Source: Escherichia virus TH49
Sequence record: MT446417.1
Strand: one strand, 5' to 3'
DNA length: 41,043 nucleotides
This document shows, in pieces, positions 21,268 to 26,244 of the stretch; the first letter of the stretch is position 1, and the number at the start of each line of letters is the position of its first letter. Both the position numbers and the translations under genes were made by a program. The notes under the pieces were generated by a model. That model searched no databases and was not told where the DNA came from. It saw only the letters and a program-made list of their open reading frames with translations.

Positions 21268-21400
21268 GGCTTAGACCCTGCGAAGTCTTCGTGTGCAGAC
21301 CTATCCAGATGGGATGCCTCTCAGAGTTACACAATGAGTATCACCTCGTTTCAAGTAGTACCTCAAAACATTTCGTATAAACAACATAAGGAGATTCAAC

Positions 21401-22447
21401 ATGGCTAACATGCAAGGTGGACAGCAGCTCGGTACTAACCAAGGTAAAGGTCAATCCGCATCAGACAAGCTGGCGCTATTCCTGAAAGTATTCGGCGGTG
21501 AAGTCCTGACCGCTTTCGCTCGTACCTCTGTGACCTCTAACCGTCACATGCAGCGTCAAATCAGCTCCGGTAAGTCCGCACAGTTCCCTGTGATTGGGCG
21601 CACCAAGGCTGCTTACCTGCAACCGGGCGAGTCTCTGGATGACAAACGTAAAGACATCAAGCACACTGAGAAGACCATTAACATTGATGGCCTGCTGACC
21701 GCGGACGTGCTGATTTACGACATCGAAGACGCGATGAACCACTATGACGTGCGCTCCGAGTACACCTCTCAGATTGGTGAATCTCTGGCAATGGCGGCTG
21801 ATGGTGCGGTTCTGGCCGAGCTGGCTGGTCTGGTTAACCTCGCGGATTCCGTCAACGAGAACATCGCTGGTCTGGGCAAACCGTCCCTGCTGGAAGTTGG
21901 CGCTAAGGCTGACCTGACTGACCCGGTCAAACTGGGCCAAGCGGTTATCGCTCAGCTGACCATTGCTCGTGCGGCTCTGACCAAGAACTACGTTCCGGCT
22001 AACGACCGTACGTTCTATACCACCCCGGACGTGTACTCTGCGATTCTGGCGGCTCTGATGCCAAACGCTGCGAACTACGCGGCTCTGATTGACCCTGAGC
22101 GTGGTTCTATCCGTAACGTGATGGGCTTCGAAGTCGTCGAGGTTCCGCACCTGACTGCTGGTGGTGCTGGTGGTGCTGGTGATGACCGCCCGGATGAAGG
22201 CGCAGAAGCGACCAACCAGAAGCACGCCTTCCCGGAAACTGACGGTAAAGTCAACAAAGAGAACGTTGTGGGCCTGTTCCAGCACCGTTCCGCTGTTGGT
22301 ACCGTTAAGCTGAAAGATCTGGCTCTGGAACGTGCTCGTCGTACCGAGTATCAGGCTGACCAGATTGTCGCTAAGTACGCGATGGGTCACGGCGGTCTGC
22401 GTCCAGAATCTGCTGGTGCGCTGGTTTTCAAGGCGGCCTCGGCGTAA
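21401..22447 (+). CDS. gp10A: Major capsid protein (T7 gp10A homolog)
   Basis: 348 aa; strong RBS AAGGAGA. Long identities with the recalled T7 10A (DKLALFLKVFGGEVLTAFARTSVT, SGKSAQFPV, KDIKHTEK.I.IDGLLTADVLIYDIEDAMNHYDVRSEYTSQ.GESLAMAADGAVLAE, SAILAALMPNAANYAALIDPE.GSIRNVMGFEVVEVPHLTAGGAG, DLALERARR). Confidence 0.98.
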   Translation: MANMQGGQQLGTNQGKGQSASDKLALFLKVFGGEVLTAFARTSVTSNRHMQRQISSGKSAQFPVIGRTKAAYLQPGESLDDKRKDIKHTEKTINIDGLLTADVLIYDIEDAMNHYDVRSEYTSQIGESLAMAADGAVLAELAGLVNLADSVNENIAGLGKPSLLEVGAKADLTDPVKLGQAVIAQLTIARAALTKNYVPANDRTFYTTPDVYSAILAALMPNAANYAALIDPERGSIRNVMGFEVVEVPHLTAGGAGGAGDDRPDEGAEATNQKHAFPETDGKVNKENVVGLFQHRSAVGTVKLKDLALERARRTEYQADQIVAKYAMGHGGLRPESAGALVFKAASA

Positions 22448-22719
22448 ATACCTTTAGTGCTCGGACGGTAACTCCGTCTGAGTATGAGGTACAGACTGTG
22501 GCCATTGCTGGTGATTCACTTAAGGTGACACTTGATGGGCTGGAGGGAGTAACGGACTGGTCAAGCCTTGAGGTAACCTATGGTACTTCTGGGATTGCCA
22601 GCCACACTCGCCGGACCAACACGCTGTACTTCAAAGGAATCGCTGTAGGCGAAACTATAGTGACTGTCAGCTTTGACGGGTCTGCAATGAAGTCCTTTAA
22701 GCTGGTCGTGACTAACTAA
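22423..22719 (+). CDS. gp10B: Putative gene 10B extension reached by a -1 frameshift at GGTTTTC; Ig-like domain
   Basis: The -1 frame relative to 10A is open from 22375 to 22719. GGTTTTC (22423..22429) lies six codons before the 10A stop on the conserved V-F-K codons. The roughly 96-aa extension has a Big_2-like pattern (GDSLKVTL...TVTVSFDG...FKLVVTN). The track lists only the 3' part (22498..22719). Confidence 0.6.
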   Translation, partial: GFQGGLGVNTFSARTVTPSEYEVQTVAIAGDSLKVTLDGLEGVTDWSSLEVTYGTSGIASHTRRTNTLYFKGIAVGETIVTVSFDGSAMKSFKLVVTN

Positions 22720-22726
22720 TAAGCCA

Positions 22727-22766
22727 AACCCCTTGGGGACCACTCACGGTCTCTGAGGGGTTTTTT
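22727..22766 (+). terminator. T-phi-like transcription terminator
   Basis: The hairpin aaccccttggggacc / ggtctctgaggggtt is followed by TTTTTT, resembling the T7 T-phi terminator (CCCCTTGGGG...GAGGGGTTTTTT) at the same position after gene 10. Confidence 0.85.
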
Positions 22767-22783
22767 CGTTAGGAGCTTACAAT

Positions 22784-23362
22784 ATGAACATGCAAGATGC
22801 TTATTTTGGGTCTGCCGCCGAGCTGGATGCAGTCAACGAGATGCTCGCAGCCATCGGTGAATCCCCTGTGACCACACTCGACGAAGATGGTAGCGCAGAC
22901 GTAGCGAACGCTCGTCGTATCCTCAACAGGATTAACCGCCAGATTCAGTCTAAAGGTTGGGCCTTCAATATCAACGAGTCGGCCACATTGACCCCGGACG
23001 TGGACACTGGGCTTATACCATTCCGTCCAGCATACCTGTCCATCCTTGGTGGCCAGTACGTCAACCGTGGTGGTTGGGTGTACGACAAGTCCACAGGGAC
23101 AGATACCTTCTCTGGGGCAATCACAGTGACCCTAATCACACTTCAGGACTACGACGAGATGCCTGAGTGTTTTCGCCAGTGGATTGTCACCAAGGCCAGT
23201 CGCCAGTTCAACTCTCGATTCTTCGGAGCGGAGGACGTAGAGAACTCGTTGGCACAGGAAGAGATGGAAGCACGGATGGCGTGCAACGAGTACGAGATGG
23301 ACTTCGGACAGTACAATATGCTTGACGGTGATGCATACGTTCAGGGTCTCATCGGTCGTTAA
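22784..23362 (+). CDS. gp11: Tail tubular protein A (T7 gp11 homolog)
   Basis: 192 aa. Collinear with the recalled T7 gp11 ([70 protein letters not shown]). Confidence 0.93.
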
Positions 23363-25833: not shown

Positions 25834-26244
25834 ATGTACATAAGAAACACTGTAAGTAATGACTTTGATTTGTTCGTCCCGGCCTACCATGACGTACTTG
25901 AGGCACAGGCCATGGGTATAGAACCATCGTTCCCAGCGGTTACCGAGTGTGTCACGTTAGACCACGATGGTTTTCCTTTGGCTATAGGTGGACACTGCGG
26001 AGACCAGTGCTGGTTCGTCACGAGCGACCAAGTGTGGAGACTCGACAGGGCTGGCAAGCTGGAGTTCCGTGAGAGAATCATGGAGTACAGGGACATGTTA
26101 TTAAATGTTTATCCATCCCTGTGGAACTTCGTGTGGGTCGGTAACGGTCCCCACAAGCGGTTCCTTAAGTCCATCGGTGCTGTATTCCACGAGGAGTACA
26201 CTCAGGGTGGGAAGTTCCAACTGTTCACCATAACGAGGAGGTAA
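25834..26244 (+). CDS. gp13: Internal virion protein A (gp13-like)
   Basis: 136 aa; assigned by synteny (between gp12 and gp14) and size similar to T7 gp13. No sequence recognised. Confidence 0.6.
   Translation: MYIRNTVSNDFDLFVPAYHDVLEAQAMGIEPSFPAVTECVTLDHDGFPLAIGGHCGDQCWFVTSDQVWRLDRAGKLEFRERIMEYRDMLLNVYPSLWNFVWVGNGPHKRFLKSIGAVFHEEYTQGGKFQLFTITRR

What the first reader, a model, noticed from the sequence alone, without database searches (positions are those of the whole stretch)
22375..22719. Probable programmed -1 frameshift at GGTTTTC giving a capsid protein 10B with an Ig-like C-terminal domain
The -1 frame is open from 22375 to 22719 across the 10A stop (22445..22447). The heptamer GGTTTTC at 22423..22429 sits on the conserved V-F-K codons six codons before that stop; I recall the same heptamer as the T7 gene 10 shift site. 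A shift there would fuse 10A residues 1-343 to a roughly 96-aa extension whose sequence pattern (GDSLKVTL, TVTVSFDG, FKLVVTN) resembles bacterial Ig-like (Big_2) domains. This would be a minor capsid variant displaying an Ig-like domain on the head surface, possibly for adhesion to capsule or mucus.
Basis: partly seen in the sequence, partly recalled or inferred. Interest (0 to 1): 0.55.

Follow-up and report, generated by a model that had tools for sequence, protein, structure and literature searches.

The report
Frameshifted capsid protein with Ig-like tail
This T7-like Klebsiella/E. coli phage almost certainly makes a second, longer capsid protein by letting ribosomes slip back one base near the end of the capsid gene. 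The slip adds a flexible linker and a small immunoglobulin-like domain to the head surface; this trick is already known from phages T7 and T3, though the domain here is an unnamed sequence family.

Summary
Gene 10A is 21401..22447. The -1 frame is open from 22375 to 22719. GGTTTTC (22423..22429) lies in phase as G GTT TTC on Val342-Phe343. This is the same heptamer, at the homologous position, as the annotated 10A/10B frameshift site of T7.

The frameshift reading is well supported by comparison. In 54 relatives from at least four genera the downstream domain is always in the -1 frame. That frame is always open back to N GTT TTY. The 10A stop and the linker length vary, no start codon is conserved, and pN/pS is 0.24-0.30 only in the -1 frame.

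The 96-aa extension is a disordered linker of about 20 residues followed by a confident seven-strand beta sandwich. Its best structural matches are phage Ig-like domains (lambda gpV C-terminal domain, N4 decoration protein, Big_2 modules). It fails the Pfam Big_2 model, whereas the T3 10B extension passes it, so it is Ig-like in fold but a separate sequence family (PHROG 7473, function unknown).

There is no direct protein evidence, and the efficiency and function are unknown. Verdict: a new member of a known kind that is often mis-annotated as a separate hypothetical ORF. Interest is modest.

The parts
21387..21393 (+). Shine-Dalgarno sequence TAAGGAG of gene 10, 7 nt before the ATG
   Evidence: Read from the sequence; SD scan.
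21401..22447 (+). Gene 10A, major capsid protein (348 aa, 36.9 kDa), zero frame, stop TAA at 22445..22447
   Evidence: ORF list. Pfam Gp10A-like E 1.6e-102 and PHROG 267 major head protein. 77% identical to T7 10A and 97% to KP32 10A.
22423..22429 (+). Slippery heptamer G GTT TTC (Val342-Phe343), the proposed -1 shift site
   Evidence: In phase. Identical to the heptamer at the homologous place in T7 V01146, where 10B is annotated as a two-piece join. GTTTTC is invariant in 46 of 46 close relatives; the first base is G in 44 and C in 2. It is A or T in more distant lineages, with TTT replacing TTC in one.
22426..22719 (+). -1 frame segment of gene 10B: Phe re-read as TTT, then 96 new residues and stop TAA at 22717..22719. 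The full 10B is 21401..22426 joined to 22426..22719 (439 aa, 46.6 kDa)
   Evidence: Translation. Open in all 46 close relatives and in 8 distant ones. pN/pS is 0.24-0.30 in this frame and above 1.7 in the other two.
22429..22485 (+). Linker of 10B (QGGLGVNTFSARTVTPSEY), predicted disordered
   Evidence: AF2 pLDDT is below 50 for extension residues 1-11 and 13-16. Linker sequence and length differ among lineages (10B extension 88 to 104 aa in all) while the frame is kept.
22486..22716 (+). Ig-like beta-sandwich domain of 10B (extension residues 21-97, seven strands); PHROG 7473, no Pfam family
22449..22491 (+). Conserved 18-bp RNA hairpin (loop UAACU) within the linker-coding region. It may stimulate frameshifting or occlude the internal GAGGT/GTG; its role is unproven
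   Evidence: RNAalifold consensus with two covarying pairs. 98.7% of cells are paired, against at most 52% when partners are slid; 20 double-change cells against 8.5 +/- 2.5 in shuffles. Single-sequence z-score is -3 to -4. No Rfam family.
22486..22500 (+). GAGGT plus GTG (22498): a possible internal start that gene callers use for a stand-alone 73-aa ORF
   Evidence: ORF list and SD scan. The GTG is present in 27 of 46 close relatives. The GAGGT lies in the 3' arm of the hairpin.
22726..22768 (+). Tphi-like intrinsic terminator (AAACCCCTTGGGG...GAGGGGTTTTTT) directly after the 10B stop
   Evidence: Terminator scan. Same order and near-identical stem sequence as T7 Tphi after 10B.

Best explanation
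Gene 10 of this Przondovirus-type T7 relative encodes two capsid proteins from one mRNA.

Most ribosomes read 21401..22447 and make 10A. A minority pause with tRNA-Val on GUU in the P site and tRNA-Phe on UUC in the A site of G GUU UUC (22423..22429). They slip one base towards the 5' end, so that tRNA-Phe re-pairs with UUU and tRNA-Val partly with GGU, and they continue in the -1 frame.

These ribosomes pass the 10A stop out of frame. They read a flexible linker of about 20 residues and then a 77-residue Ig-like beta sandwich, and they stop at 22717..22719 just before the Tphi-like terminator.

The 439-aa 10B co-assembles with 10A through the shared HK97-fold body. It displays the Ig-like domain on the outside of the head, where it most likely makes weak, multivalent contacts with surface polysaccharide.

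**Shown here:** the site, the phase, the open frame, their conservation, purifying selection in the -1 frame, and the predicted fold.

**Inferred:** that slippage really occurs, how efficient it is, that 10B enters the capsid, that the domain faces outwards, and what it binds.
For: 1. **Orthologous site.** The window's 10A aligns to T7 10A at 77% identity up to ...AGAxVFK. T7 V01146 has GTGGTTTTCAAA there, with 10B annotated as a join. Atkins et al. 2016 (PMC5009743) list G_GU U_UUC of T7 gene 10 as a bacterial -1 site.
2. **Close relatives.** In 46 sequences GTTTTC is invariant. The -1 frame is open for 97 codons in all of them, while the zero-frame stop moves (VFTAA*, VFKAASA*, VFTAAQA*).
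3. **Distant lineages.** Kayfunavirus IMM-002, ST53, pO2 and Pkp-1, Pektosvirus PP81, and metagenomic L046 and L047 have domains only 45-56% identical to the window's and linkers unrelated in sequence. All keep the domain in the -1 frame, open back to N GTT TTY.
4. **No conserved start.** Candidate starts sit at four different codons; none is present in more than 27 of 46 close relatives, and L014 has none ahead of the domain. 27 of 54 sequences have no start with an SD of 4 nt or more.
5. **Selection.** pN/pS in the -1 frame is 0.24 for the domain and 0.30 for the linker upstream of the GTG. It is 1.8-2.3 in the other two frames.
6. **No in-frame fusion.** Across 112 clusters at 90% identity and a search of 1.8 billion representatives, the domain is never found fused in frame to a capsid protein. 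It appears only as 55-85 aa fragments with inconsistent starts.
8. **Precedent.** T3 10B is annotated as a -1 join and carries a Big_2 extension. The literature states that frameshifting adds Ig-like domains to phage capsid proteins, T3 included.
9. **Existing annotation.** The KP32 RefSeq note already says a minor capsid protein arises from gene 30 by a -1 shift.
Against: - No protein-level evidence was found for any phage that carries this domain.
- A gel-band mass spectrometry study of the 96%-identical phage Kp11 did not list the downstream ORF product (Kp11_38) among virion proteins and said Kp9 and Kp11 lack minor capsid proteins. This is weak negative evidence.
- An icosahedrally averaged cryo-EM map of Przondovirus H5 reported only gp10. 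A sub-stoichiometric tethered domain would be averaged out.
- The first base of the heptamer is not conserved outside the close clade (C, A or T), so P-site re-pairing is weak in those lineages.
- No canonically spaced stimulator lies 5-9 nt downstream. The conserved hairpin starts 19 nt after the site.
- In the window itself GTG 22498 has a GAGGT at 7 nt, so some free 73-aa product is conceivable.
- The linker region is nearly invariant at all three codon positions. This could reflect RNA-level rather than protein-level constraint.
Confidence: 0.85

Rival explanations
1. The downstream ORF is a separate small gene. Its 73-aa product, translated from GTG 22498 using the GAGGT at 22486..22490, acts as a free decoration or assembly protein. 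The GGTTTTC is simply inherited Val-Phe coding sequence.
For: GTG 22498 has a 5-nt SD-like match at 7 nt spacing, and the same holds in 27 of 54 relatives. GenBank annotators and gene callers routinely call a stand-alone ORF here. Free Ig-like capsid decoration proteins exist in other podophages, such as N4 and Peru-2.
Against: - The GTG is GTA or GTC in 19 of 46 close relatives. Alternative starts sit at different codons, lack an SD in half the sequences, and are absent in L014.
- Starting at 22498 would cut off most of predicted strand 1, residues 21-26.
- The GAGGT lies inside a conserved hairpin stem.
- The frame relation to 10A (-1) and an open path back to GTTTTY are kept across lineages whose linkers differ in length and sequence. 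An independent gene does not need this.
- The stretch upstream of the GTG shows pN/pS of 0.30 in the -1 frame.
Confidence: 0.08
2. The -1 ORF is a decaying remnant. The ancestral 10B extension is no longer expressed in this lineage, or only at noise level, and the region persists because it holds RNA elements (the hairpin and the terminator) needed for gene 10 mRNA stability and termination.
For: Virion proteomics and cryo-EM of close relatives did not report the extension. The linker region is nearly invariant at the nucleotide level and holds a conserved hairpin. One metagenomic relative, L041, carries a deletion that removes the last strand and the stop.
Against: The domain shows clear purifying selection in the -1 frame only (pN/pS 0.24, against above 1.7). 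There is no stop or frameshift in 53 of 54 sequences across several genera. The AF2 fold is confident. A dead ORF would not stay intact at 45-50% protein identity between genera.
Confidence: 0.04
3. The extended product arises by slippage of the phage RNA polymerase on the T run, which would make -1 mRNAs, rather than by ribosomal slippage.
For: The site contains a homopolymeric T4-T5 run. The sequence alone cannot tell the two routes apart.
Against: By established knowledge, productive transcriptional slippage needs runs of roughly 7 or more A or T. Here the run is 4 (5 in L046). The homologous T7 event is treated in the literature as ribosomal frameshifting on G_GU U_UUC.
Confidence: 0.03

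Closest known systems
Bacteriophage T7 gene 10A/10B programmed -1 ribosomal frameshift (Condron, Atkins and Gesteland 1991, as cited in PMC5009743 and PMC4283147)
   Same: The capsid protein is orthologous (77% identity). The heptamer G GTT TTC is identical and sits on the homologous Val-Phe codons a few codons before the 10A stop. The junction VF|Q is the same. The extension ends immediately before a Tphi-type terminator that contains the CCCC run.
   Different: The T7 extension is 56 residues and is not Ig-like according to the literature. Here it is 96 residues with a folded beta-sandwich domain. The T7 extension shares no similarity with it beyond the first residues. The 10A stop is 3 codons after Phe in T7 and 5 here.
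Bacteriophage T3 (and T7M, phiYeO3-12 type) minor capsid protein 10B with a Big_2 Ig-like extension made by -1 frameshifting
   Same: The logic and outcome match: a -1 shift near the end of gene 10A appends a linker plus one Ig-like domain of about 80-90 residues to a fraction of capsid subunits. T7M gp10B is among the structural neighbours of the model.
   Different: The slippery site differs (C CCA AAG on Pro-Lys). T3 has a stem-loop close to the site. Its domain is a bona fide Pfam Big_2 (E 4.5e-10), whereas the window's domain hits no Pfam family and has no BLASTP similarity to it. This suggests independent acquisition of different Ig-like modules at the same locus.
C-terminal Ig-like domain of the lambda tail tube protein gpV (PDB 2L04) and other phage accessory Ig-like domains (N4 decoration protein 9E99, Hoc-like proteins)
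   Different: They sit on different carrier proteins (a tail tube, or a separate decoration protein). Sequence identity is only 21-24%. There is no frameshift in gpV.
PHROG 7473 and GenBank 'minor capsid protein' or 'hypothetical protein' ORFs downstream of the capsid gene in Przondovirus, Kayfunavirus and Pektosvirus
   Same: This is the same protein family (E 4.4e-42 to PHROG 7473; 88-96% identity to Klebsiella phage ORFs) at the same locus.
   Different: Databases treat it as a stand-alone gene of 55-85 aa with unknown function and inconsistent starts. The evidence here indicates that it is the C-terminal part of 10B.

Membership tests
T7-type gene 10A/10B -1 programmed ribosomal frameshift | Carrier is an orthologue of the T7 gp10A major capsid protein | tested here: met
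   Pfam Gp10A-like E 1.6e-102; 77% identity to T7 10A over the full length.
T7-type gene 10A/10B -1 programmed ribosomal frameshift | Slippery heptamer G GUU UUC in the X XXY YYZ phase near the 3' end of 10A, at the position homologous to T7 | tested here: met
   22423..22429 is in phase on Val342-Phe343. T7 carries GTGGTTTTCAAA on the aligned VVFK.
T7-type gene 10A/10B -1 programmed ribosomal frameshift | The -1 frame is open from the site past the 10A stop, and this is conserved among relatives | tested here: met
   Open in 46 of 46 close relatives and in 8 of 8 distant sequences. pN/pS is 0.24-0.30 in the -1 frame only.
T7-type gene 10A/10B -1 programmed ribosomal frameshift | A longer capsid protein with the trans-frame junction is made and incorporated into virions | not testable with these tools
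   This needs proteomics or a western blot. No positive report was found; Kp11 virion mass spectrometry did not list the ORF.
T7-type gene 10A/10B -1 programmed ribosomal frameshift | A 3' stimulatory element (in T7, a long-range element that includes CCCC in the Tphi terminator) | tested here: inconclusive
   A Tphi-like terminator with CCCC lies about 300 nt downstream. A conserved hairpin starts 19 nt downstream. Neither is shown to stimulate shifting. The T7 element is known to me only from the review.
Pfam PF02368 Big_2 (bacterial Ig-like domain, group 2) | Match to the Big_2 profile HMM at or above the gathering score | tested here: not met
   No hit at E <= 10 for the window's extension or any of 24 relatives. 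The positive control, the T3 10B extension, scores 39.8 bits, E 4.5e-10.
Ig-like beta-sandwich fold (phage accessory Ig-like domains in the sense of Fraser et al. 2006) | Seven-strand two-sheet sandwich of about 80 residues that is structurally similar to known Ig-like domains | tested here: met
Ig-like beta-sandwich fold (phage accessory Ig-like domains in the sense of Fraser et al. 2006) | Exposed on the virion surface and binding carbohydrate or mucin | not testable with these tools
   Surface exposure is inferred from the external C terminus of T7 gp10, which is the basis of T7 display (my own knowledge). Binding is untested.

The most novel reading that the evidence does not exclude
The extension could be a previously unrecognised family of phage Ig-like adhesion modules, absent from Pfam and found only in some Studiervirinae. 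It would be displayed on Klebsiella and enterobacterial podophage heads only through an obligatory -1 shift. A lineage-specific, unusually distant RNA hairpin (22449..22491, 19 nt from the slip site) would set the output. That hairpin would also mask an internal start, so that the 10A:10B ratio, and with it capsule or mucus adherence, is tuned at the RNA level.
Probability: 0.2. Interest if true: 0.5.

Novelty: new member of a known kind. Interest (0 to 1): 0.3.

Why it matters
- **Annotation.** Hundreds of therapeutic-candidate Klebsiella, E. coli and Salmonella podophage genomes list this stretch as an unrelated hypothetical gene, as 'major head protein', or even as an antisense regulator. 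It should instead be the 3' part of a frameshifted capsid gene. Correcting this changes the predicted virion surface.
- **Biology and use.** A surface Ig-like domain on a minority of capsid subunits could affect adherence to capsule, biofilm or mucus, and also pharmacokinetics and immunogenicity. It also marks a natural permissive site for capsid display in Przondovirus.
- **Evolution.** T7, T3, K1F and this group carry unrelated extensions behind the same gene. This makes the locus a clear case of module swapping downstream of a conserved recoding site.

Tried and rejected
- **Pfam scans** of the extension and of 24 relatives found no Big_2 and nothing else significant.
- **A profile search of PDB sequences** with alignment A1 found no meaningful hit, so no solved relative exists.
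- **BLASTP** of the window's extension against the T3 extension gave no alignment.
- **An Rfam scan** of 22300..22800 found no family.
- **A canonically spaced stimulator.** The hairpin is 19 nt away. Comparable hairpins in other lineages sit at 36-48 nt or are not significant (T7 z -1.0, IMM-002 z -1.0, L046 z -0.3), so no conserved position emerged.
- **In-frame capsid-domain fusions ('Rosetta stone').** None was found in 5.8 billion clusters or 1.8 billion representatives.
- **Literature.** Searches for protein evidence of 10B in KP32-type phages found none. The original Condron 1991 paper is not held, so T7 details rest on the GenBank record and the Atkins review.
- **Second GGTTTTC at 25969.** Rejected as out of phase.
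- **Stop-codon readthrough.** Rejected because the domain is in the -1 frame, not the zero frame.
- **Structure of the fused 439-aa protein.** I did not attempt it. A fused sequence is not a contiguous translation of the window, and a monomer model would not show how the domain sits on the capsid.
Full report
**What the window is.** The 1.38-kb stretch around the finding is 100% identical to Escherichia virus TH50 (MT446418) and about 96% identical to several hundred Klebsiella phages of the genus Przondovirus (the KP32 group, subfamily Studiervirinae). The ORF at 21401..22447 is the major capsid protein 10A. It matches Pfam Gp10A-like at E 1.6e-102 and PHROG 267. It is 97% identical to KP32 gp30 and 77% identical to T7 gp10A over its whole length.

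**Checking the observation.**
- The -1 frame has a TAA at 22372..22374 and is then open to the TAA at 22717..22719.
- GGTTTTC occupies 22423..22429. The zero-frame codons are GTT (Val342) and TTC (Phe343), so the motif is in the X XXY YYZ phase.
- The 10A stop is at 22445..22447.
- A shift there gives a 439-aa protein of 46.6 kDa, against 348 aa and 36.9 kDa for 10A. The junction is ...SAGALVF|QGGLGVN... and 96 residues are new.

The heptamer by itself is not statistically remarkable. The window holds two copies against 3.8 +/- 1.9 expected, and the other copy (25969) is out of phase with its gene. The significance comes from context.

**Homology of the site with T7.** In the T7 record V01146, gene 10B is annotated as a two-piece join. 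The sequence at the end of 10A is GCA GTG GTT TTC AAA GTG GAG TAA. The window's Val342-Phe343-Lys344 align with T7 Val-Phe-Lys, so this is the same heptamer at the orthologous codons, and the trans-frame junction VF|Q is the same. The review by Atkins et al. (PMC5009743) lists G_GU in T7 gene 10 as a bacterial -1 site. It also notes a long-range dependence on a CCCC in the transcription terminator. The window has a Tphi-like terminator with that CCCC at 22726..22763, directly after the 10B stop, as in T7.

**Comparative evidence for translation through the junction.** I collected 45 related loci and aligned the region.
- GTTTTC is invariant in all 46 sequences. The first base is G in 44 and C in 2.
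- The -1 frame is open for 97 codons in every one. The zero-frame stop sits at three different places (VFTAA*, VFKAASA*, VFTAAQA*).
- Candidate start codons for a stand-alone ORF are not conserved. ATG or GTG occurs at 22465 in 19 of 46, at 22489 in 14, and at 22498 in 27. One sequence (L014) has none ahead of the domain. This explains why gene callers return products of 55, 73, 76 or 83-85 aa for the same DNA.

An exhaustive HMMER search and tblastn then found more distant copies of the domain, 45-56% identical. They occur in Kayfunavirus (IMM-002, ST53, pO2, Pkp-1), in Pektosvirus PP81 and in two metagenomic contigs. In all of them the domain is again in the -1 frame relative to the capsid gene, and the frame is open back to G/A/T GTT TTC/T. 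Their linkers are unrelated in sequence and differ in length, with the whole extension ranging from 88 to 104 aa.

An independent gene would have no reason to keep this frame relation through repeated indels. Nei-Gojobori counts over the 45 close sequences give pN/pS of 0.24 for the domain and 0.30 for the linker upstream of the window's GTG when read in the -1 frame. The other two frames give 1.8-2.3. Finally, the domain is never found fused in frame to a capsid protein in either large protein collection. That fits an obligatory recoding event that sets a ratio.

**What the extension is.** Pfam gives no hit at E <= 10 for the window's extension or for any of 24 relatives. PHROGs places it in family 7473, function unknown. 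AlphaFold2 with a 25-sequence alignment gives a mean pLDDT of 81.7. Residues 1-20 are disordered, and residues 21-97 form a seven-strand all-beta domain with pLDDT of about 90.

Structural comparisons agree on an Ig-like fold:
- Foldseek against the PDB puts the C-terminal Ig-like domain of the lambda tail tube protein (2L04) first, at E 9e-4 and TM 0.57-0.60. The phage N4 capsid decoration protein follows, and a Big_2-CBM56 module appears further down.
- BFVD returns the PP81 'minor capsid protein' (same family), several BIG2-domain phage proteins, T7M gp10B and capsid decoration proteins.

At the sequence level the only cellular relative is a 405-aa lipoprotein with three Ig-like repeats (E 2.9e-5). 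Those repeats weakly match Big_3, Big_3_5 and other sandwich families. So 'Ig-like' holds at the fold level, on a predicted model. 'Big_2' does not hold as a family assignment.

The contrast with T3 is instructive. T3 10B is annotated as a -1 join. It uses C CCA AAG, and its extension matches Big_2 at E 4.5e-10, yet it has no BLASTP similarity to the window's extension. K1F has a 44-codon extension, and the T7 extension is not Ig-like. The locus behind the capsid gene therefore carries different modules in different lineages.

**Mechanism.** The best-supported reading is tandem or A-site slippage on G GUU UUC. tRNA-Phe re-pairs from UUC to UUU, and tRNA-Val re-pairs partly from GUU to GGU. Translation then continues in the -1 frame through a Gly/Ser/Thr/Pro-rich linker into the Ig-like domain.

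By analogy with T7, the C terminus of gp10 is external; this is the basis of T7 display and rests on my own knowledge. The domain should therefore project from the head on a tether of about 20 residues. The efficiency is unknown; the 10% figure for T7 is from memory.

A conserved RNA hairpin lies at 22449..22491. It has 18 bp and a UAACU loop.
- 98.7% of cells are paired, against at most 52% for slid controls.
- Two pairs covary (A-U to G-C in 11 sequences and C-G to U-A in 9), with G-U intermediates.
- The single-sequence z-score is -3 to -4.
- The covariation couples the amino-acid changes T/V and S/P in the linker.

The hairpin starts 19 nt after the slip site, too far for a canonical stimulator. 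Comparable hairpins in other lineages are at other distances or absent. Its 3' arm contains the GAGGT that could serve GTG 22498. I can only list it as a candidate stimulator or as an occluder of internal initiation. Rfam has no match.

**Rivals.**
- *Independent initiation at GTG 22498* is physically plausible in this genome, with a 5-nt SD-like match at 7 nt. It cannot be the conserved route, it would truncate strand 1, and its SD is sequestered in the hairpin. I give it about 0.08 as the main route.
- *A non-expressed relic* is contradicted by frame-specific purifying selection across genera (0.04).
- *Transcriptional slippage* is unlikely on a T4 run (0.03).
- *Readthrough* is excluded by the frame.

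**Evidence against, and gaps.** No protein-level evidence exists in the literature I could search. A gel-band mass spectrometry study of phage Kp11 (96% identical here) did not list the ORF product. An icosahedrally averaged map of Przondovirus H5 shows only gp10. Both are weak negatives for a sub-stoichiometric, flexibly tethered domain. The function, adhesion to capsule or mucus, is an analogy with T4 Hoc and with T3 10B as described in the literature. Nothing here tests it.

**Novelty.** The 10A/10B frameshift is textbook for T7 and T3. The use of frameshifting to append Ig-like domains to phage structural proteins is established. The KP32 RefSeq note already mentions a -1 product. Three things are modestly new:
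- The extension of the KP32, Kayfunavirus and Pektosvirus type is a folded Ig-like domain of a sequence family absent from Pfam.
- It is systematically mis-annotated as a stand-alone gene.
- It comes with a conserved hairpin.

I rate it a new member of a known kind, interest about 0.3.

Noticed in passing
window 22449..22491: An 18-bp RNA hairpin (CTCGGACGG-TAACT-CCGTCTGAG extended by TACCTT/GAGGTA) lies inside the 10B linker-coding region. It is conserved, with two compensatory pair changes and several G-U intermediates across 31 distinct relatives. It starts 19 nt after the slip site and 2 nt after the 10A stop, and it buries the GAGGT upstream of GTG 22498. Its function is unknown and it has no Rfam family.
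   Followed up: partly
window ~22159..22179: The window's 10A has a 3-residue insertion (GGA, in TAGGAGGAGDD) relative to KP32 10A. It is made by a tandem copy of GGTGGTGCT, in the surface-loop region where T7 and Przondovirus capsids differ.
   Followed up: no
window 21476..22390 (- strand): A 304-aa antisense ORF spans almost all of gene 10A. It is most likely a by-product of the strong codon bias of the capsid gene, not a gene.
   Followed up: no
L041 (IMGVR_UViG_3300045988_007064), aligned to window ~22690..22727: This metagenomic relative carries a deletion of about 38 nt that removes the last beta strand and the stop of the domain, so the -1 frame runs into the terminator (extension ends ...DGSEMTNPLGTTHGL). 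It is either a natural loss-of-domain variant or an assembly error.
   Followed up: no
L050 1534..1764 (MF630921.1, Escherichia phage IMM-002): The GenBank record annotates an antisense 'XRE family transcriptional regulator' exactly over the domain-coding stretch and has no forward-strand feature there. This is probably a misannotation. Other records label the same ORF 'major head protein', 'putative capsid assembly protein' or 'similar to tail protein'.
   Followed up: partly
protein P0024: A 90%-identical copy of the phage domain is deposited as a partial hypothetical protein of Flammeovirga agarivorans on a 562-nt contig. This is probably phage contamination of a bacterial assembly.
   Followed up: no
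protein P0116: The only cellular protein with significant similarity to the domain (E 2.9e-5, 29% identity) is a 405-aa lipoprotein. It has a mollicute-style signal peptide and three near-identical Ig-like repeats separated by (EA)n linkers. It hints at the wider family from which the phage module derives.
   Followed up: partly
window 25969..25975: This is the only other GGTTTTC in the window. It lies inside the gene 13 homologue (25834..26244) but out of the X XXY YYZ phase, so it is not a candidate shift site.
   Followed up: yes
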